This document shows, piece after piece, positions 6,574 through 12,783 of a stretch of 12,783 nt of DNA (its first letter is position 1; every line of letters begins with the position of its first letter). The position numbers and the translations under genes were made by a program. This DNA is from a virus (lineage: Duplodnaviria; Heunggongvirae; Uroviricota; Caudoviricetes), in IMG/VR virus record IMGVR_UViG_2636415418_000003; one strand, 5' to 3'. The notes below the pieces were generated by a model, which was not told the DNA's origin, made no database searches, and was given only the letters and a program-made list of their open reading frames with translations.

Positions 6574-8002
6574 CGCTATCTGTGGCAGTGGAAAAAGCTA
6601 CAAACTCAAACAATATATAAAGAACAATCCTGATAAACGAATCCTAATAGCTGTCCCAACACACGAATTAGCTTCTCAAACACAATCAGACCTCCAGAAA
6701 CTCGGCATTCCTGCATATCACAACCAGGTAGATAATGGCGAGAGCGCAACACGATCACTAATAAACGCGCTGGATGATGATTTTGGGCGAAACATTGTTA
6801 TTGTGACTCACGAATGCCTACTACATTTTTGTTTATATGCGTATCGTGATGAGAAAACCCAGAATAAATTACATCTGTTTGACATCTATATAGATGAAAT
6901 CCCCACAGCCTGGTACGGGGCTGAGGTTGATTATAAAAATGAGGAATATCGAAACTCCAACTTCCCATTTCTCGGATGGTTAGAGGAACGGGACGGTCTA
7001 CGTTTTGTTCGTCATGAGGACAGAGAAAAATTCCTCGCCTATTACCAGAGTGAACACGCTAACAGTAAACTGTTAAAACAGGCTCTATTTGCCTTGCTCA
7101 CAGGGCAGGGAATGCTGTTAGAGGAGGATAAATATTTTTTCTCGTTTACTGCTAACCCAATCCTGTATAGCGCCCTGTGGGCTAAATCATTCACTGTGTT
7201 AGGCGCTAACGTTGGGATTAGTGAGTTTGCCTACGCCGCTAAAACTATTCTGAATGCAGAAATCTCGCTGGCTGATGATGAGTTGCAGCCGGACCTGATG
7301 CGCCGCGTTCATACTGACACAAAAAGAATTGAACTGATCCCGGTGTTTAACCAGAAATGTACAAAAAAACTACTGAGTGAAAATTACAGCGATATCCTGA
7401 ACGGGACACGCAGAGCGCTGAGAGACGGCTTTATTTATACCAGCAACAACGATGAGCAGTACAGCAACGGGTTTTACTACGCCTCACATGCTGATGACGT
7501 GTTAGAAGGTGGTGAGCGTGTTTCAATGGCATCCTATGGCCTGAACCATTACCAGCACCTGAATAAAGCCGCATTCTTGGGATGTGCAAACCTCGACAAA
7601 ACAACCATTGGACACTGGCGCAAGTATTGTGATCTAAATGGCTGGGACTGGCGTGAGTTAGAGGAGAAACGGCAGGCAGCACTGAACTACGAAAAGGTTT
7701 ATCAATTCGTTTCCCGCTGTTCTGTCCGTGTTAGAGGGAACAACAATAAACAGGTTTATATCATCCCTGATGTCGGTTGTGCTGAATATCTCAAACAACA
7801 TTATTTTCCAGATGCAGTGATCAAACCAGCGATGATAAAAGCTGAAAGGAAAAAGAGAGATACGTCTAAAGGCGATTCGAAACTTCAGTTAATCAAGGGA
7901 CTATTGGACGAAGGTTATAAACAGAGTCAGATTATTGCAATCACAGGTTTTAAAGAAAATTCAGTTAAGGGATACTTAAAAAGAATCCGAAAAGCAGCAT
8001 AA
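6533..8002 (+). CDS. P-loop NTPase with helicase-like motifs and a C-terminal sigma-70 region-4-like HTH (489 aa)
   Basis: Walker A CGSGKS near the N-terminus; PTHELA (resembles helicase motif Ia); Walker B-like LFDIYIDE; C-terminal IAITGFKENSVKGYLKRIRK resembles sigma region 4 / LuxR-type HTH. ATG at 6533 with SD agagga (6522-6527) preferred over the TTG at 6518 in the ORF track. Confidence 0.85.
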   Translation: MQKTEQSLKLKIVNAICGSGKSYKLKQYIKNNPDKRILIAVPTHELASQTQSDLQKLGIPAYHNQVDNGESATRSLINALDDDFGRNIVIVTHECLLHFCLYAYRDEKTQNKLHLFDIYIDEIPTAWYGAEVDYKNEEYRNSNFPFLGWLEERDGLRFVRHEDREKFLAYYQSEHANSKLLKQALFALLTGQGMLLEEDKYFFSFTANPILYSALWAKSFTVLGANVGISEFAYAAKTILNAEISLADDELQPDLMRRVHTDTKRIELIPVFNQKCTKKLLSENYSDILNGTRRALRDGFIYTSNNDEQYSNGFYYASHADDVLEGGERVSMASYGLNHYQHLNKAAFLGCANLDKTTIGHWRKYCDLNGWDWRELEEKRQAALNYEKVYQFVSRCSVRVRGNNNKQVYIIPDVGCAEYLKQHYFPDAVIKPAMIKAERKKRDTSKGDSKLQLIKGLLDEGYKQSQIIAITGFKENSVKGYLKRIRKAA

Positions 8003-8006
8003 ATCA

Positions 8007-8060
8007 ACGGCGTCCGAAAATCCGGACGGCGTTAAATTAAACCCACCCGAAAGTTCGGGT
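8007..8060 (+). other. Two consecutive GC-rich hairpins between the ATPase gene and the next gene; possible partial terminator or RNA-processing / protein-binding site
   Basis: Hairpin 1: 8007-8016 pairs with 8023-8032 (one mismatch). Hairpin 2: acccg (8045-8049) / cgggt (8056-8060). Neither is followed by a clear T tract. Confidence 0.3.
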
Positions 8061-8089
8061 ACCGTTAAATAATAATCATTGGAGGAATA

Positions 8090-8452
8090 TTGGCATATGC
8101 ACGACAAAATGTAGTATTTGAGGAATCAACAGAAATCGGATTTAACAGCAGAACAAAAAAAGTAAAAATCCCTAAGAAGTTAAAACCTCTAAAAATAATC
8201 AAACTCTACGAAGAATCTGCACTACTGACACCAGAAGAACAATCAATAATTAACTCTATGGCTGGTGTAACGTGGAAGCCCCGCCAGAGGTATTCCGGAT
8301 TCAAGTTCAATCGTGAACCGCTCAAATTTGAGTACCTGTTTGATAACATCAATGAGTATGAGGGCTGGTTAGAATTCAATCGCCTTGAGAATGAAAACTT
8401 TAATGGGAATGATCTTGGACTAGATTTTGATGCCAACGGCATCTCTGATTAA
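8090..8452 (+). CDS. Hypothetical protein (120 aa) with probable TTG start
   Basis: Only in-frame start after the upstream stop is TTG at 8090, preceded by SD GGAGGA (8081-8086) at a short 3-nt spacing; acidic C-terminus. Confidence 0.55.
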   Translation: MAYARQNVVFEESTEIGFNSRTKKVKIPKKLKPLKIIKLYEESALLTPEEQSIINSMAGVTWKPRQRYSGFKFNREPLKFEYLFDNINEYEGWLEFNRLENENFNGNDLGLDFDANGISD

Positions 8453-8480
8453 TTATTATAAAAATAACAGGAAGGTAAAA

Positions 8481-8768
8481 ATGATTGATTTTGAACAACA
8501 CAAAAACATTGTAGAACAGTTTGTAGAACAGCATTACCCGCTCGCGCATAGTCTGATGTTGGATAGTTATATTGACCCAGAAGCCTATTATTCAAACTAC
8601 CAAATGCTACTAGAAGCGATGAATAAATTGCCTGAACATCCTGAGTGCTTTTTAGAGTGGCTCTTAGAAGCTGATGCAGCTTTGTATATTAATCTGATGG
8701 AACTTGTTGTAATAACCAGAACTATTCATAACGTGTTTGAACAAGTTTCGTCTGGAGGGATGGAATAA
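8481..8768 (+). CDS. Acidic hypothetical protein (95 aa)
   Basis: ATG at 8481 with SD aggaagg (8469-8475) at 5-nt spacing, preferred over the TTG at 8427 in the ORF track, which would overlap the upstream gene. Confidence 0.65.
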   Translation: MIDFEQHKNIVEQFVEQHYPLAHSLMLDSYIDPEAYYSNYQMLLEAMNKLPEHPECFLEWLLEADAALYINLMELVVITRTIHNVFEQVSSGGME

Positions 8769-9052
8769 TGTTTAAACGGAATAAACCCTCGGAGCATCCA
8801 ACAATCACCTCTGGAAGATATCATACACAGGACGGGAATATTTATATCCAACGTGATGATGGTATCTGGAAGCAAAATGTTAACTACCTCGCTGCTATTC
8901 CTAATCAGTACGGATGCACCACCTACGAGGAACAATTTGAGAAGATTATAGGTCACATCGATAACGGTAAATTACGTGGTACATACGCCTCTACGATGCA
9001 TTATAAAATGATAGATGGTAAACTCTATAGATTTAATGAGAAAACGTCTTAG
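8768..9052 (+). CDS. Hypothetical protein (94 aa) with repeated DG-x-IY / DGKLY beta-hairpin-like motifs
   Basis: ATG overlaps the upstream stop (TAATG); SD ggaggg (8754-8759) at 8-nt spacing; last gene of the operon. Confidence 0.65.
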   Translation: MFKRNKPSEHPTITSGRYHTQDGNIYIQRDDGIWKQNVNYLAAIPNQYGCTTYEEQFEKIIGHIDNGKLRGTYASTMHYKMIDGKLYRFNEKTS

Positions 9053-9111
9053 AATGCCACTTTTATACCCCTTTTTATACACCTTATCGTTTCTCAAAAA
9101 ATATTAAAAAT

Positions 9112-9137
9112 GTCTCTATTTAGAGACTCTATTTATT
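9112..9137 (+). terminator. Weak hairpin plus T-rich tract after the operon; possible terminator
   Basis: gtctct (9112-9117) / agagac (9122-9127) with 4-nt loop, followed by tctatttatt; the stem is short and AT-containing. Confidence 0.25.
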
Positions 9138-9164
9138 GACAAAATAATGTTTTAATGTTATTAT
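9136..9164 (+). promoter_or_regulatory. Near-consensus sigma-70 promoter (TTGACA, 17-nt spacer, TATTAT)
   Basis: -35 ttgaca at 9136-9141 (exact consensus), spacer 9142-9158, -10 tattat at 9159-9164; predicted start near 9171. Confidence 0.5.
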
Positions 9165-9309
9165 AAATATGTAGACAATAATCAACGGATGCTATACTTA
9201 GAATATTGTTTACTACAGAAAAAGTAGGCGTTACTGGCATTACGCCTTCCTTGGGAATCCTCACAGTTTGCTCCGGGACTAGTTCACCCATCCACGATAA
9301 CTGTGGGGC

Positions 9310-9349
9310 AATTCTCAATATATATTTTCGTGAGTGTATATTGAGAATT
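9310..9349 (+). repeat. Perfect 13-bp inverted repeat aattctcaatata / tatattgagaatt with 14-nt loop
   Basis: Read directly; inside the candidate leader RNA; could be an RNA hairpin or a DNA operator. Confidence 0.6.
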
Positions 9350-9401
9350 AATCCGCCAAAAAGTTTAGTTCAATGTTAATCAATTATTCTTCTTATGTTT
9401 T

Positions 9402-9437
9402 AAGGCCACTATTTCTGTGGCCTTTCTTTTATTCTTT
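9402..9437 (+). terminator. Intrinsic terminator about 30 nt upstream of the downstream module
   Basis: Stem aaggccac (9402-9409) / gtggcctt (9417-9424) with 7-nt loop, followed by a T-rich tract to 9437. Confidence 0.55.
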
Positions 9438-9465
9438 GCAAAGAAACAAAAGGATTTTAAAAATT

Positions 9466-9690
9466 ATGGTTACAATTACAAAAGGCGTCCAAACGTTTGA
9501 CGGGAAAATCCCCGTTACTCTGTTGGTTGATGATGTCGAAACGGCAAACGAGTTAATCAAGCTCGCTAAAGCTGCAAATGTCCCTGTAGTAGAACAGGAA
9601 GAAGATTTAAATAAATCTAAAAATAAAACTACTCAAGATAAACTAAAACAGATTATTAAAAACAAAGGGGTTCCTAATGGCACTAATTAA
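9466..9690 (+). CDS. Hypothetical protein (74 aa); start uncertain
   Basis: ATG at 9466 with weak SD aagga at ~11-nt spacing; the alternative in-frame ATG at 9373 would put the terminator hairpin inside the coding sequence and has no SD; 14-nt overlap with the next gene. Confidence 0.45.
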   Translation: MVTITKGVQTFDGKIPVTLLVDDVETANELIKLAKAANVPVVEQEEDLNKSKNKTTQDKLKQIIKNKGVPNGTN

Positions 9691-10027
9691 ATTCCCACAA
9701 CCTAATCTCAGCGTCTGCGACGTTCTGAGCCGTGAATTAAACGGCTACAGCCGAAAAGTTAAAGTTTTTCCAAAGATTCCTGATTGCGTCCCTGGAACTG
9801 TGATTGATGATAGCGGCGAAATTGTCGGTTCGGCTTCTACCTCTGCGAACGTGGTCCTTGAATATAAAGACGCAGACACTACGCCTGTCGCTGTTCTGGT
9901 AGCAAATACGAATATCCATATCAAGGATTTCAGTTTGGTTTGTGATGATGTAGCAAAAGCTAAAGAACTACTTTCTGCTGATCCTGCTGTTTATTTCAGC
10001 ACTGGCAATGATTTGCCAACTACCTGA
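9677..10027 (+). CDS. Hypothetical protein (116 aa)
   Basis: ATG at 9677 with SD aagggg (9665-9670) at 6-nt spacing; sits immediately upstream of the 346-aa gene, the position a head-decoration gene would occupy in a lambda-like head module (speculative). Confidence 0.6.
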   Translation: MALIKFPQPNLSVCDVLSRELNGYSRKVKVFPKIPDCVPGTVIDDSGEIVGSASTSANVVLEYKDADTTPVAVLVANTNIHIKDFSLVCDDVAKAKELLSADPAVYFSTGNDLPTT

Positions 10028-10068
10028 TTAAAATAATCCACAAACTAAAATAATAAAGGAAAAATAAT

Positions 10069-11109
10069 ATGTTTTCATATGATGCCTATAAAATGGTAGA
10101 CCTTGCCCCGATTTTTGAAGTTGCACCGAGTGAAGGTTACTTACTACAGAATTTAAACATCTTTGATAAATCTTCGAGTGACGGCATTTATGTCATGCTC
10201 GATCGCCTTATCGAAGATAATAAAACCCTCCTGAACCAACCGAAAAAACGTTACAGTTTTGAACACGATTCGACGGCCCGGACTCCCGCAAATAGTTTCC
10301 CGGTAGAACTTCTGCACCTGCACCGCGAGGATACTGTGAGCGCTGTTGATTTTCAGAAAGCTGGACGCAAACCGGGGACAGATGTTCAGGAAACCATGCT
10401 CGATATCGTCGCGGATTACACCCTCAAACACGCTAAATCCTATAAGCGCTATATCGAGGCTGCATACGGTGATGCTCTGTTTCGTGGGCTGGTTCAGACC
10501 CCGTACACTCAGGAAGCACCAGTTATTGATTATGCTGACAGTTTCGATGCCCCGATGATGGCAGACACTATCAATCTGTCCAACGGCTCTACCGATGCGT
10601 TGGAAGTGTTTAATGGCTTCTTGGATAAAATTAGCACTGCCACAGATGGTTTGTGGACTGATGTTCGCCGTGTTGTCTGTTTTGCATCTGCAAGCTTCTA
10701 TAATAGCCTGCGTTTTCATGCCTCTATGAAAAGCGCTTACCAGTACGTTGACCCATTTAACGAGATGAATATCGTTTATCAGCGCAAAGAGGTTTTGCCA
10801 AATGTGCAAACCTTCACCTTGCCAGGACTGAGCATAGACGTGATCAAGGTGACTGACCCGCTTCTTACTCCGTTTATCGCTGACGGTACAGCGGTCATGC
10901 TGCCAGTATTCCAAAGCAACACGAACGTTTATCAACATCTGTACGGTCCTGCCTCAGTTGATACTAATCTAGCGGCGTCTGGCATTACTCAAGAATATTT
11001 CTCCTATCAGTACGAGAAAGAGCGTGGTGAGGTTGAAATTGTATCAGAGGCGTCGGTGTTGCCTGTAAATCACGGTACCAATTTCAGTCTGGTTATCACT
11101 GCCAATTAA
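10069..11109 (+). CDS. Hypothetical protein (346 aa); candidate virion structural (capsid-like) protein, unverified
   Basis: ATG at 10069 with SD aagga (10056-10060) at 8-nt spacing; ordinary amino-acid composition, whereas the antisense ORF 10153-10938 is Cys/Trp/His-rich; size and gene order are compatible with a major capsid protein but I see no conclusive motif. Confidence 0.8.
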   Translation: MFSYDAYKMVDLAPIFEVAPSEGYLLQNLNIFDKSSSDGIYVMLDRLIEDNKTLLNQPKKRYSFEHDSTARTPANSFPVELLHLHREDTVSAVDFQKAGRKPGTDVQETMLDIVADYTLKHAKSYKRYIEAAYGDALFRGLVQTPYTQEAPVIDYADSFDAPMMADTINLSNGSTDALEVFNGFLDKISTATDGLWTDVRRVVCFASASFYNSLRFHASMKSAYQYVDPFNEMNIVYQRKEVLPNVQTFTLPGLSIDVIKVTDPLLTPFIADGTAVMLPVFQSNTNVYQHLYGPASVDTNLAASGITQEYFSYQYEKERGEVEIVSEASVLPVNHGTNFSLVITAN

Positions 11110-11119
11110 TGATCTTCGC

Positions 11120-11150
11120 AGCAGCATTAACCGTGCTGCTTGTTGAATTA
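11120..11150 (+). terminator. Weak hairpin after the 346-aa gene
   Basis: agcagca (11120-11126) / tgctgct (11134-11140) with 7-nt loop, followed by tgttgaatta; poor T tract. Confidence 0.2.
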
Positions 11151-11211
11151 TGGATTGGTGAGCGAATTCCAGTTCATATAATAATTATTCTATTGTGGAG
11201 ATTGTTAAAAA

Positions 11212-11415
11212 ATGACAGCACAAATAATCCTTAAAGATGAAAACGGAAACTTCGCTACTATTGACGATCTCAGCGATTGGGATTTATTTAGGTTAATCAA
11301 TATTACACGGTTAGCCAAAAAAACCGGGAGGAATCGTCATACTATTGCAGCACACGTATGCAGGCAATACCCCGATGGCGAGTATAGAAGTTTGGTAACA
11401 GCATTAAACAAATAA
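11212..11415 (+). CDS. Small hypothetical protein (67 aa) with possible helix-turn-helix
   Basis: ATG at 11212; SD ggag at a long ~11-nt spacing; segment INITRLAKKTGRNRHTIAAHV has an HTH-like pattern. Confidence 0.45.
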   Translation: MTAQIILKDENGNFATIDDLSDWDLFRLINITRLAKKTGRNRHTIAAHVCRQYPDGEYRSLVTALNK

Positions 11416-11431
11416 AAATTTAAATTATATA

Positions 11432-11467
11432 AAGCCTCTGCCCTGTTTGGTCAGGGGCTTTTTTATT
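11432..11467 (+). terminator. Bulged hairpin plus T tract; possible partial terminator before the last gene
   Basis: Outer helix aagcc (11432-11436) / ggctt (11456-11460) and inner helix ccctg (11441-11445) / caggg (11452-11456) as alternative pairings, followed by tttttatt; the next gene starts 12 nt later, so read-through is likely. Confidence 0.35.
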
Positions 11468-11478
11468 ATGGAGTAGCT

Positions 11479-12783
11479 ATGGCAACTAAGGTAGAAGCAG
11501 CAACACTGGTTAACAGGATTGTTTATAAGTCTGATTTAAACAGTCTGAAAAAAGTTAGAAATGACATGAAAAAACTGCAAAAAGACTTCAGCAAAACAGA
11601 GGGAACTATAGCCAAAGCAAAGATGCAGGCTCAAAAACAGGCGTACACTGCACAAATGCAGCAGCAGAAACAGGTTCAACAACAGCAGAAACAAGCTGCA
11701 AAACAACAAGCAGTAGATGCAAAGGCTAAGGCTAATGAGCAAAAAAAGCTGGCGGCAGCCCAGAGCATAGCGGCTAAAATCCAGCTTCAGCAGCAGGCTA
11801 AAACCGCTAAAACAAATGAAAACGCCATGCTGGCTCAACGCAAGGCTCTTTTCGACATCGGTAGGCTCCAGGGTCTAAATGGTACAGAGAGGTTGGCAGC
11901 AGCACGACACGCCCAGAATCTGGTTAAACAGTACCAAGCAGGTGCAATCAGCCTCCGGGATTTAAACAGCCAAATGGCTATACATATGGCTCAGCAAAAG
12001 GCCCTGGCAAGGAATAACAATCAGCAGGCAAAAAAATCAGGTCAGGGAAAAAAATCTGGTTCTTCAGGTTGGGTTGCACGTAATGCTGGCGCGATACTGC
12101 CCGTGGACAAAATTTTAGGACCCACAGCCGCTGCATATCTAGGTACTCAGGCCTACCAGATTATATCCGGAACACTGGCGGGAGCAGTAGAACGGAACCA
12201 GGGCAGGAAGATGATCCAGAGTTTTGGTGGAAACGACCTTGAGTATATGGCGTTGAGACAGGAATCTCTGAAAAGAACAGGTTTTGACATCTCTAGGGAC
12301 AAATACGCCGATATTAGTAAAGACCTAAAGGACCGCCAGGGTGATTTAACTTTTGGTAGCACTGATAAAAACGGCAATTTTACTGGTGGTGGTGAGTTCT
12401 CGGATTTGGTCAACGTCATGCGCCAGAGGATGGGTTACTCCAACGGCGGCGCTGTCAAACAGTTGCAGTCGCTAAAAACGCCAGTCGAGTTTGCTGTGAT
12501 GCTGCGCGGGATGCTTGAATCAGGCAAAATCACCACGCAGGAATTTGTCAATATGGGGGAAAGGATCAATGACGCCTCATATGTTCTGAATAGCGTTGAT
12601 TCTGGTGGTCAGAACCTGATAAAAACTATGGATACCTTGGTTGATTCTCATTTAGCACTAACGACTGCTCAACAGAAATCTATTAATAATCTAACAGAGA
12701 TGTCAGCAGTATTTAATCAAGCAAAAGAAGCTTTGGGTGATCAATTTGCAGCTTCCTTTAGCATGAAGTGGTTTACTGAATTT
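11479..12783 (+). CDS. Large Gln/Ala/Lys-rich coiled-coil protein, 3'-partial (at least 435 aa); tape-measure-like or scaffold-like, unverified
   Basis: ATG at 11479 with SD ggag (11470-11473) at 5-nt spacing; I translated the frame by hand to the window end with no stop; missing from the ORF track only because it has no stop in the window; N-terminal ~170 aa are Q/A/K-rich, followed by Gly-rich hydrophobic segments. Confidence 0.8.
   Translation, partial: MATKVEAATLVNRIVYKSDLNSLKKVRNDMKKLQKDFSKTEGTIAKAKMQAQKQAYTAQMQQQKQVQQQQKQAAKQQAVDAKAKANEQKKLAAAQSIAAKIQLQQQAKTAKTNENAMLAQRKALFDIGRLQGLNGTERLAAARHAQNLVKQYQAGAISLRDLNSQMAIHMAQQKALARNNNQQAKKSGQGKKSGSSGWVARNAGAILPVDKILGPTAAAYLGTQAYQIISGTLAGAVERNQGRKMIQSFGGNDLEYMALRQESLKRTGFDISRDKYADISKDLKDRQGDLTFGSTDKNGNFTGGGEFSDLVNVMRQRMGYSNGGAVKQLQSLKTPVEFAVMLRGMLESGKITTQEFVNMGERINDASYVLNSVDSGGQNLIKTMDTLVDSHLALTTAQQKSINNLTEMSAVFNQAKEALGDQFAASFSMKWFTEF

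What the first reader, a model, noticed from the sequence alone, without database searches (positions are those of the whole stretch)
9112..9466. Consensus promoter, structured leader and intrinsic terminator placed directly in front of the downstream gene module
A near-perfect sigma-70 promoter (TTGACA, 17 nt, TATTAT) is followed by about 265 nt with no SD-preceded ORF, containing a perfect 13-bp stem, and ending in a clean intrinsic terminator ~30 nt before the next gene. This is the architecture of either a stand-alone small RNA or a constitutively made short transcript whose terminator is overridden by a processive antiterminator, as with lambda pR'/tR' and 6S RNA. It would make expression of the downstream module conditional on a factor that may be encoded in the upstream operon.
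Basis: partly seen in the sequence, partly recalled or inferred. Interest (0 to 1): 0.75.

Follow-up and report, generated by a model that had tools for sequence, protein, structure and literature searches.

The report
Conserved structured leader RNA gating capsid genes
A strong promoter, a conserved folded non-coding RNA of about 260 nt and a terminator sit directly in front of the capsid genes of a roughly 12-kb mobile island found in E. coli, Klebsiella and Raoultella; they most likely act as an on/off gate for those genes, and the RNA matches no described family.

Summary
The best sigma-70 match in the window (TTGACA-17-TATTAT with TGn, 9136-9164) is followed by about 260 nt without a conserved ORF, then an intrinsic terminator (9402-9424 plus U-tract) about 32 nt before the next start codon (9466).

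Homologues were collected from E. coli, Klebsiella, Raoultella and gut metagenomes. All 16 whose upstream region was examined keep a strong promoter, and all 22 distinct core sequences keep the terminator. The core helices show compensatory changes (97% of cells paired; covariation 0.225 against 0.125 shuffled, 0/500). G·U pairs are tolerated only on the + strand. It is therefore a genuine structured RNA, absent from Rfam, the phage database and the searched literature.

The RNA always sits between the regulatory/replication genes and a capsid module of a ~12-kb tRNA-integrated, satellite-like island, even where the capsid gene is a 23%-identical allele. No promoter lies after the terminator. 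A second conserved strong terminator lies inside the module (11434-11464).

Best reading: a late-operon gate that needs antitermination, with the RNA core as the likely cis element and the terminated transcript accumulating as an sRNA. A Q/AlpA-type factor, or a purely trans-acting sRNA, remain live rivals. No antiterminator could be identified upstream.

The parts
9112..9139 (+). Palindrome GTCTCTATTTAGAGAC plus a direct repeat CTCTATTTA (9114 and 9127, 13-nt spacing) abutting and overlapping the -35. It could be an operator or a weak terminator of the upstream operon.
   Evidence: Conserved in 15 of 16 homologues, with the central ATTT/AAAT flipped in some. The exact motif occurs only here in the window. 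Function not tested.
9136..9164 (+). Sigma-70 promoter: -35 TTGACA, 17-nt spacer, TGn, -10 TATTAT. The predicted start is near 9171.
   Evidence: 11/12 match, the best in the window. All 16 homologues examined have TTGACA-17-TATTAT, TTGACA-17-TAACAT, TTGACA-18-TATAAT or TTGATT-17-TATAAT at the equivalent place. The start site is inferred, not measured.
9171..9225 (+). Variable 5' domain, short 'type A' form: an imperfect 5'-terminal hairpin GUAGACAAUA.../...UAUUGUUUAC. Other islands carry a longer, unrelated 'type B' domain of about 135 nt here.
   Evidence: The pairing register is ambiguous and there is no clear covariation. A -10-like hexamer AATAAT lies at about +7 to +12.
9227..9246 (+). 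Helix P1 (GGCGU/ACGCC). The UGGCAUU motif in its 10-nt loop (UACUGGCAUU) is invariant.
   Evidence: Compensatory GC to AU change in 7 of 22 distinct sequences. The loop motif TTGGCATT is invariant in all 22.
9247..9257 (+). Small hairpin Pa (UUCC-UUG-GGAA). Some homologues have a CC-UUCG-GG tetraloop version.
   Evidence: and the alignment. One homologue (L035) reads AUCC...GGAU, which I read by eye as a compensatory swap of the outer pair.
9259..9308 (+). Helix P2 (10 pairs, 9259-9269 / 9299-9308) enclosing a 29-nt internal loop with invariant CUCCGGG and UCACCC.
   Evidence: Three adjacent pairs switch together (CAG/CUG to UUA/UAA) in 11 of 22 sequences. G·U pairs are present. The segment 9226-9309 is 55% G+C amid flanks of 11-29%.
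9310..9349 (+). It is 15 pairs long with an 10-11-nt loop.
   Evidence: Four pairs show compensatory changes and two show G·U/G-C alternation.
9350..9401 (+). Unpaired A/U-rich linker of about 52 nt with conserved UCCUCCAAAA (UCCGCCAAAA in this window) and UUCAA(U)GUUAAUCAA motifs.
   Evidence: No conserved pairing. Motifs are conserved in 22 sequences. A 12-nt deletion is tolerated in L008.
9402..9433 (+). Intrinsic terminator t1: an 8-bp stem, 7-nt loop and U-tract UCUUUUAUU.
   Evidence: -13.4 kcal/mol. Present in all 22 distinct sequences, with an A-U to U-A compensatory change and a near-invariant U-tract.
9434..9468 (+). Short spacer with a Shine-Dalgarno sequence (AAGGA, 9451-9455) and the ATG (9466) of the first capsid-module gene (74 aa). 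There is no room for, and no match to, a promoter.
   Evidence: Spacer length and the GGATTT...ATG motif are conserved.
11434..11464 (+). Second intrinsic terminator t2 (GCCTCTGCCCTG...CAGGGGC plus T6) inside the same module, 15 nt before the ATG (11479) of the 603-aa gene.
   Evidence: Found in all 9 homologues checked, at -15 to -43 kcal/mol, with different but complementary stems.

Best explanation
This is the late-control region of a ~12-kb integrative, satellite-like island.

A strong sigma-70 promoter (9136-9164) makes a structured RNA of about 260 nt. The RNA has a variable 5' hairpin, a G+C-rich conserved core (helices P1, Pa, P2, P3), an A/U-rich tail, and an efficient intrinsic terminator t1 (9402-9433).

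t1 lies in the only transcriptional path into the capsid module: the 74-aa and 116-aa genes, the gpE-like major capsid protein, the 67-aa gene, then t2, then the 603-aa gene. By default the promoter therefore yields a short stable RNA and the capsid genes stay off. They are expressed only when RNA polymerase becomes terminator-resistant and reads through both t1 and t2.

I think the conserved RNA core is itself the cis element of that switch. It would either act on the polymerase directly (put- or conAn2-like) or recruit a protein to it (nut-like). The protein could come from the island (the always-adjacent p120 and p95 are candidates) or from a helper phage.

Shown: the promoter, RNA structure and both terminators exist and are conserved. 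The RNA is under structural selection on the + strand. No other promoter serves the module.

Inferred: transcription starts near 9171. t1 terminates efficiently. Read-through is regulated. The RNA core mediates it.
For: Conservation of the whole arrangement:
- 16/16 promoters conserved.
- 22 distinct RNA cores with t1.

Structural selection on the RNA:
- 97.2% of cells are paired.
- 10 pairs carry compensatory changes.
- Covariation is 0.225 against 0.125 in shuffles (0/500) and at most 0.078 in slid controls.
- G·U pairs fit only the + strand.
- Loop motifs are invariant.
- No ORF is conserved.

Position:
- The RNA is always immediately 5' of the capsid module, even when the module carries an MCP allele only 23% identical and the replication genes are swapped.

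Gating:
- No promoter-like site lies between t1 and ATG 9466.
- A second strong terminator t2 is conserved 15 nt before the 603-aa gene.

RNA rather than promoter DNA as the functional unit:
- The core is constant while promoter spacers (at least 3 types) and the 5' domain (2 types) are shuffled.

No riboswitch-type alternative:
- No conserved helix competes with t1, which points to factor- or RNA-polymerase-level antitermination.

Precedents for each element: lambda/Stx PR'-tR' (PMC7547250), AlpA (PMC7969949), HK022 putRNA (PMC9378689), conAn2 (PMC8191782).
Against: - There is no expression, 5'/3'-end or read-through data of any kind.
- No known antitermination signal was recognised. By eye there is no good boxA or ops match, and there is no Rfam hit.
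- No antiterminator protein was identified.
- A terminator placed directly after a constitutively acting antitermination RNA would be pointless, so a conditional partner must be postulated.
- t2 could simply set stoichiometry after the capsid gene, as terminators do in other phage structural operons.
- The diversity sampled is narrow (CM effective sequence number 1.36). Compensatory changes fall into a few allelic blocks, so they represent few independent events.
Confidence: 0.4

Rival explanations
1. Q/AlpA-type control. A DNA-binding antiterminator from a helper phage or the island loads onto RNA polymerase at the promoter and carries it through t1 and t2. Loading would use a site in or next to the promoter, plus a sigma-dependent promoter-proximal pause. 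The RNA is only the by-product of early termination and is conserved because it has acquired a separate trans-acting sRNA role, as StxS has in Stx phages.
For: The layout matches lambda PR'-6S-tR' and PalpB-tB: a near-consensus promoter, a short terminated RNA, then late genes (PMC7547250, PMC7969949). There is a conserved repeat/palindrome at the promoter. -10-like hexamers lie at about +7 to +14 in both 5'-domain types. Two terminators lie in series. The RNA ends in a hairpin preceded by an A/U-rich stretch, as Hfq-binding sRNAs often do (the Hfq generalisation is from my own knowledge).
Against: Promoter spacer and initially transcribed sequence are the variable parts and the downstream core is the conserved part. 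No Q or AlpA family protein was detected in the island. -10-like hexamers are common in A/T-rich DNA and were not tested statistically. This reading needs two independent functions.
Confidence: 0.25
2. An autonomous trans-acting sRNA gene. Its terminator is simply leaky, so the capsid module is expressed at a fixed low ratio by read-through, with no regulated antitermination.
For: It has its own strong promoter and terminator, a 5'-terminal hairpin, a conserved unpaired A/U-rich region next to the terminator hairpin, and conserved CU-rich anti-SD-like motifs (CCUUCC; UCCUCC in most homologues, UCCGCC in this window). Structure and loops are conserved.
Against: No target with above-background complementarity was found in the island. 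Host and helper targets could not be searched. It does not explain why the RNA is locked to the 5' edge of the capsid module across mosaic islands, why the module has no promoter of its own, or the second terminator.
Confidence: 0.2
3. A riboswitch-like sensor. The conserved core binds a small molecule, for example an infection-associated nucleotide signal, and controls t1.
For: Promoter, conserved multi-helix core with invariant loops, terminator and genes form the classic riboswitch layout.
Against: No conserved alternative helix competes with the terminator. About 52 nt of unpaired linker separate the core from t1. The P1-loop/terminator pairing that alifold proposes is not supported by covariation. 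There is no match to any Rfam riboswitch.
Confidence: 0.04
4. A DNA-level element, such as a cos/pac packaging site or an origin, at the head of the capsid module rather than an RNA.
For: It is a conserved non-coding block with palindromes at the start of the morphogenesis genes.
Against: Many helix positions tolerate G·U on the + strand, which would be A·C on the other strand. A conserved promoter and terminator frame it exactly. An iteron-like A/T-rich region that looks more like an origin lies elsewhere, at about 5340-5720.
Confidence: 0.03

Closest known systems
Lambdoid late control PR'-qut-6S RNA-tR', and its sRNA product StxS in Stx phages (PMC7547250)
   Same: A strong, apparently unregulated sigma-70 promoter. 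A short transcript ended by an intrinsic terminator immediately before the late/structural genes. Regulator genes just upstream and further terminators downstream. The terminated RNA can itself be a functional sRNA.
   Different: No Q-family protein or recognisable Q-binding element was found. The RNA is about 260-340 nt rather than 74-194 nt, and shows strong structural covariation. Promoter-proximal DNA is the variable part and the RNA core the conserved part. There is no sequence similarity. The element is a ~12-kb island rather than a complete phage.
Pseudomonas aeruginosa AlpA-PalpB-tB antitermination (PMC7969949, PMC9371919)
   Same: A promoter followed by an intrinsic terminator just upstream of the first gene of a tightly controlled module in a mobile-element-like context. 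A small protein makes RNA polymerase terminator-resistant.
   Different: The AlpA-binding element lies between -35 and -10. Here the conspicuous conserved repeat lies upstream of and overlapping the -35. No AlpA homologue was detected in this island. The alpB leader is not reported as a conserved structured RNA.
HK022 putL/putR antitermination RNAs (PMC9378689)
   Same: A structured nascent RNA just downstream of a strong promoter and upstream of terminators in an enterobacterial phage-type element. A -10-like hexamer lies in the early transcribed region, as proposed for putL folding.
   Different: put is about 70 nt with two stem-loops and a triplex. Here the core is about 125 nt with four helices and a large conserved internal loop. 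There is no evidence of RNA polymerase binding. A terminator sits only about 52 nt downstream, so constitutive action would make it useless.
conAn bipartite antitermination of Gram-positive conjugative plasmids: ConAn1 protein plus conAn2 RNA (PMC8191782)
   Same: Small protein gene(s) are followed by a 260-600-bp intergenic RNA element, with a locally G+C-rich segment and stem-loops, at the start of a long operon that contains internal terminators.
   Different: It is known only in Firmicutes conjugation operons. conAn2 has no promoter or terminator of its own flanking it. No similarity of p120 or p95 to ConAn1 was tested or seen.
Leader-encoded immunity RNAs: P1/P7 c4 and P4 CI (Rfam C4, RF01695)
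   Same: A structured RNA encoded in the leader of the operon it controls, in a phage or satellite of enterobacteria. It is made from a constitutive promoter and its action is linked to premature termination.
   Different: There is no Rfam match. No conserved complementarity was found between RNA loops and downstream sites (and inspection of the Shine-Dalgarno region). The RNA here is larger.

Membership tests
Lambda-type Q/qut late control | Strong sigma-70 promoter directly upstream of the late genes, producing a short transcript that ends at an intrinsic terminator. | tested here: met
   Promoter 11/12 with TGn, and terminator at 9402-9433. Both conserved in homologues. This is sequence-level evidence only.
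Lambda-type Q/qut late control | A Q-family antiterminator gene next to the promoter. | tested here: not met
   No Pfam, PHROG or NCBIfam antiterminator hit for the proteins of 6212-9052. p120 model unusable. p95 is a helical bundle with no PDB neighbour. A helper-encoded Q is not excluded.
Lambda-type Q/qut late control | Q-binding element in the promoter plus a sigma-dependent pause (-10-like element in the initially transcribed region). | tested here: inconclusive
   -10-like hexamers lie at about +7 to +14 in both 5'-domain types, and there is a conserved repeat at the -35. Such hexamers are frequent in A/T-rich DNA, and the promoter spacers differ between islands.
Hfq-dependent sRNA (StxS-like) | Binding to Hfq, and base-pairing to defined mRNA targets through a conserved seed. 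| not testable with these tools
   Only compatible features are seen: a terminator hairpin with U-tract, an A/U-rich conserved unpaired region, and no in-island target above background.
HK022 put antitermination RNA | An RNA of about 70 nt with two stem-loops that binds the RNA polymerase beta' zinc-binding domain and acts without protein. | tested here: not met
   The conserved core has four helices over about 125 nt with a 29-nt internal loop. Polymerase binding is not testable here. The features of put are taken from PMC9378689.
conAn-type bipartite antitermination | ConAn1-like protein gene followed by a large intergenic RNA element (G+C-rich segment plus stem-loops) upstream of operon-internal terminators. 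| tested here: inconclusive
   The architecture is analogous: p120/p95(/p94), then the RNA with a 55% G+C core, then t1 and t2. Homology to ConAn1 or conAn2 was not tested, and that family is known only in Gram-positives (PMC8191782).
Any Rfam 15 family (including C4/CI, IsrK, 6S, riboswitches, ribozymes) | Score at or above the family's gathering threshold. | tested here: not met
   No hits at gathering thresholds over the whole window. The best sub-threshold hit was RsaOG at 25.6 bits against a threshold of 50, E = 0.086.
Riboswitch / attenuator | A conserved alternative (antiterminator) helix mutually exclusive with the terminator. | tested here: not met
   Alifold on truncated alignments finds only 4-6-bp pairings of invariant segments with the terminator's 5' arm. 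Variation in that arm is not compensated.
Type III toxin-antitoxin (ToxI-like RNA, terminator, toxin) | Tandem repeats of the antitoxin RNA upstream of a terminator and an endoribonuclease toxin gene. | tested here: not met
   No tandem repeats in 9171-9401. The downstream genes are a 74-aa protein, a 116-aa protein and a major capsid protein.

The most novel reading that the evidence does not exclude
The conserved core (P1-Pa-P2-P3, with invariant UGGCAUU, CUCCGGG and UCACCC loops) is a new class of cis-acting processive-antitermination RNA in Enterobacteriaceae. It would be functionally akin to put, EAR or conAn2 but unrelated in sequence and fold. A widespread capsid-encoding satellite-like island would use it to carry RNA polymerase through two insulating terminators, alone or with the small island proteins p120 and p95. 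This would add a new RNA-based antitermination system to the few known, and the first in a phage satellite.
Probability: 0.25. Interest if true: 0.8.

Novelty: new variant of a known kind. Interest (0 to 1): 0.6.

Why it matters
- **Scale.** The capsid protein's 90%-identity cluster alone has 562 member sequences, seen on hundreds of contigs from clinical Klebsiella, E. coli and Raoultella isolates. An RNA driven by a near-consensus promoter would be a major, so far unannotated, island transcript in these isolates.
- **Biology.** It marks the decision point at which a satellite-like element commits to making its own capsid protein. Understanding it would show how such elements time their late genes relative to a helper.
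- **Mechanism.** RNA-based antitermination systems are rare, so a new one in enterobacteria would be mechanistically valuable.
- **Testability.** Whichever reading is right, the region gives a compact test object of about 330 bp: promoter, RNA and terminator.

Tried and rejected
- **Coding reading.** ORFs in the region differ in frame, start and length among homologues.
- **Known RNA families.** Nothing in Rfam at gathering thresholds, only chance-level sub-threshold hits. No tRNA or tmRNA.
- **Phage homologues.** BLAST against INPHARED found nothing, then only generic A/T-rich promoter similarity to Staphylococcus and Lactococcus phages. IMG/VR held no relative of the capsid protein, and its four hits to the 17-mer were chance matches.
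- **Antisense targets within the island.** The best helices (score at most 37) do not exceed shuffled controls (31-37). A first attempt with duplexfold timed out. A 7-bp match between GAAUCCU and the Shine-Dalgarno region of the 74-aa gene is not maintained where the Shine-Dalgarno varies.
- **Alternative antiterminator helix.** None is conserved.
- **Antiterminator among upstream proteins.** There are no family hits. The p120 family has only 25 representative clusters and its model is poor. The p95 model is confident only in the best of five models and has no structural neighbour.
- **Reaching distant relatives.** The species-representative genome scan gave one locus. Protein searches list only the top 120 hits, all at least 78% identical, so no remote islands could be fetched.
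- **Naming the island family from the literature.** No matching description was found. The conserved 15-mer occurs in no searched paper.
- **By-eye checks for RfaH ops (GGCGGTAG) and boxA (UGCUCUUUA).** Only partial, non-conserved resemblance, so both were rejected.
Full report
**Observation**

- The promoter is TTGACA (9136-9141), a 17-nt spacer ending in TGn, and TATTAT (9159-9164). It is the only 11/12 sigma-70 match in the window.
- The intrinsic terminator is AAGGCCAC-7 nt-GTGGCCTT (9402-9424) followed by TCTTTTATT. Its hairpin energy is -13.4 kcal/mol.
- The perfect 13-bp stem is at 9310-9322 / 9337-9349 and extends to 15 pairs.
- The next gene starts at ATG 9466.
- The predicted 266-nt transcript folds much better than shuffles (z = -4.6).

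An 11/12 promoter somewhere in a 12.8-kb A/T-rich window is not rare by itself: 35% of Markov resamples hold one. The case therefore rests on comparative evidence.

**Context**

The window is part of an integrated island from E. coli. Identical copies occur in five NCBI assemblies, and the capsid protein is annotated as E. coli and Klebsiella.

All genes from 6212 onward are on the + strand:
- two small proteins of 57 and 63 aa
- a DEAD-like 494-aa protein, the putative replication protein
- p120, p95 and p94
- the non-coding region
- a 74-aa protein and a 116-aa protein
- a lambda gpE-like major capsid protein (PF03864, E = 1e-19)
- a 67-aa protein
- a 603-aa protein
- a tyrosine integrase on the opposite strand

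Two Logan contigs of 12.1 and 12.6 kb contain whole islands. The ends of one share the 26-bp 3' end of a tRNA gene, which is an att repeat. No portal, protease or terminase was recognised among the proteins scanned. The element therefore looks like a phage satellite that carries its own capsid protein. I could not find it described in the literature.

**Homologues of the non-coding region**

- BLAST found related islands in an E. coli chromosome, three further E. coli chromosomes (two of them truncated by IS1), and two Klebsiella replicons recorded as plasmids.
- A pattern built from conserved bases found one species-representative genome (Raoultella planticola) and twelve metagenome contigs.
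- Protein-anchored look-ups, which are unbiased with respect to the RNA sequence, added more Klebsiella loci.
- A covariance model finds exactly one strong + strand copy in each of the 25 loci in the final search, always at the same place.
- There is no homologue in the INPHARED phage collection or IMG/VR, no Rfam family, and no paper containing the conserved 15-mer.

**It is an RNA, on the + strand**

In 22 distinct sequences the consensus structure has 44 pairs, with 97.2% of cells paired and 10 pairs carrying compensatory double changes.
- P1 switches G-C to A-U in 7 sequences.
- Three adjacent P2 pairs switch together in 11 sequences.
- Four P3 pairs change.
- One terminator pair changes.

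The covariation score is 0.225, against 0.125 ± 0.008 in column shuffles (0/500) and at most 0.078 when partners are slid by 1-3 columns.

Several positions alternate between G-C or A-U and G·U (for example P2 U·G 12 / C-G 7, P3 U·G 13 / C-G 9). These would be A·C mismatches on the other strand or in DNA. ORFs in the region are not conserved in frame, start or length.

Unpaired motifs are invariant in all 22 sequences:
- UUGGCAUU in the P1 loop
- CUCCGGG and UCACCC in the P2 internal loop
- much of the A/U-rich tail

The core 9226-9309 is a 55% G+C island in flanks of 11-29%.

A caveat applies. The sampled diversity is narrow (effective sequence number 1.36). The compensatory changes come as a few allelic blocks, so they represent few independent events.

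**Architecture is conserved while the surroundings are mosaic**

All 16 homologues examined keep a strong promoter. The forms are TTGACA-17-TATTAT, TTGACA-17-TAACAT, TTGACA-18-TATAAT and TTGATT-17-TATAAT. Predicted RNA lengths fall into two classes:
- about 250-263 nt for the short 'type A' 5' domain, as in this window
- about 326-344 nt for the long 'type B' domain (z = -4.9)

Promoter spacer type and 5' domain type are recombined independently of the core.

Around the RNA:
- the capsid protein can be a 23%-identical allele
- p95 drops to about 30% identity
- p94 is optional
- the replication genes are exchanged

The RNA nevertheless always sits between p95/p94 and the first gene of the capsid module. 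The spacer from terminator to start codon is conserved in length and is about 32-41 nt in this window. p120 and p95 are always upstream wherever that region is available.

**Gating**

No promoter-like site lies between t1 and ATG 9466, or within the RNA on the + strand. The capsid module can therefore only be transcribed through t1.

Inside the module, 15 nt before the start of the 603-aa gene, there is a second intrinsic terminator (11434-11464, then U6). It is conserved in all nine homologues checked, with different but complementary stems, at -15 to -43 kcal/mol.

Two conserved terminators in series without intervening promoters is the arrangement served by processive antitermination in lambda late operons and in the conAn-controlled conjugation operon (PMC7547250, PMC8191782). 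t2 could also be a stoichiometry device.

**Which mechanism?**

A riboswitch-type switch is unlikely. No conserved helix competes with t1, and about 52 unpaired nucleotides separate core and terminator. The short pairings alifold proposes with the terminator's 5' arm are not compensated where that arm varies.

A pure Q/AlpA-type model accounts for:
- the promoter
- the conserved CTCTATTTA repeat and palindrome at the -35
- the -10-like hexamers at +7 to +14
- both terminators

It does not explain why the promoter-proximal DNA varies while the downstream RNA is held constant. No Q or AlpA homologue was found either.

A purely trans-acting sRNA explains the conservation of structure and tail. 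It does not explain the fixed linkage to the capsid module, the missing promoter, or t2. No in-island target exceeded background.

I therefore favour, at about 0.4, a gate in which the RNA core itself is the cis element of antitermination, acting nut-, put- or conAn2-like. A conditional partner must be postulated, because a constitutive antiterminator directly in front of a terminator makes no sense. Under this reading the terminated RNA accumulates as a by-product that may also act in trans, as StxS does.

The adjacent proteins p120 and p95 are the obvious candidate partners.
- p120 has a basic N-terminus and its model is largely low-confidence.
- p95 is an acidic helical bundle.
- Nothing links either to known antiterminators.

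**Comparison with known systems and novelty**

Functionally the closest are:
- lambda/Stx PR'-tR' with StxS
- AlpA-PalpB-tB
- HK022 put
- conAn
- the leader-encoded immunity RNAs c4 and CI

Membership in any of these fails or is untestable: no Q, a non-put architecture, no Rfam match, no complementarity to downstream targets.

The kind, a promoter-proximal terminated leader controlling late genes of a phage-like element, is known. This RNA family and its host island appear undescribed, so I rate it a new variant of a known kind.

**Verdict**

The either/or interpretation is partly supported. The specific mechanism needs the experiments listed under next steps.

Noticed in passing
window 11434-11464: A second strong intrinsic terminator (GCCTCTGCCCTG...CAGGGGC plus T6) lies inside the capsid module, between the 67-aa gene and the 603-aa gene, 15 nt before its ATG. 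It is conserved with compensatory stem changes in all 9 homologous islands checked.
   Followed up: yes
window ~1900-12783 and beyond (L001 to 14496); whole islands L028, L029: The host element is a ~12-kb tRNA-integrated island. It carries a lambda gpE-like major capsid protein but no recognisable portal, protease or terminase, and its replication and capsid modules are mosaic (two capsid alleles only 23% identical in the same slot). It is common in Klebsiella, E. coli and Raoultella, absent from the phage databases searched, and I found no description of it. It may be an undescribed satellite family. Many public assemblies hold it as separate 10-13.8-kb contigs; one is bounded by a 26-bp tRNA 3'-end repeat.
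   Followed up: partly
window 9112-9139: The palindrome GTCTCTATTTAGAGAC and the direct repeat CTCTATTTA (13-nt spacing) abut the -35 of the RNA promoter. They are conserved in 15/16 homologues, with the central ATTT/AAAT inverted in some. This could be an operator for an island regulator (by eye the 63-aa protein at 6382-6573 looks ribbon-helix-helix-like) or a weak terminator of the upstream operon.
   Followed up: partly
window ~5340-5720: An A/T-rich non-coding stretch between the 140-aa gene and the early promoter (6028-6057) is full of reiterated CATAGC / ATAGTTAATAA-type words. It looks like an iteron-type replication origin.
   Followed up: no
window 9061-9084: A tandem 12-nt repeat TTTTATACCCCT / TTTTATACACCT lies just after the stop codon of the 94-aa gene. 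Islands that lack that gene instead have a 9-bp hairpin (CCTCTCAGA...TCTGAGAGG) at the equivalent place after p95.
   Followed up: no
window 9466-9690: The first gene after the terminator (74 aa) has weak similarity to the C-terminal region of FlhB/EscU-type export-switch proteins (TIGR01404 E = 0.037; one database source even names it EscU). In islands with the other capsid allele, a different 95-103-aa protein sharing an '...IPVxE...' motif occupies this slot.
   Followed up: no
window 8481-8768: p95, which together with p120 lies upstream of the RNA wherever that region is available, is predicted as a four-helix protein (best model pLDDT 88.9; the other four models 49-62). It has no significant structural neighbour in the PDB (best E = 0.83).
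   Followed up: yes
window 3524-4090 (-) and 3567-4133 (+): Two mirror-image 188-aa ORFs overlap on opposite strands. Only the minus-strand one is a small tyrosine recombinase (phrog_216, E = 1e-31). Some related islands carry a serine recombinase (Resolvase) in this accessory region instead.
   Followed up: partly
window 2701-2726: A perfect 11-bp hairpin (ATGAGAGGAGA-ATAC-TCTCCTCTCAT) lies right after the DUF2971 gene (1979-2680). It is the strongest terminator-like stem on the + strand of the window.
   Followed up: no
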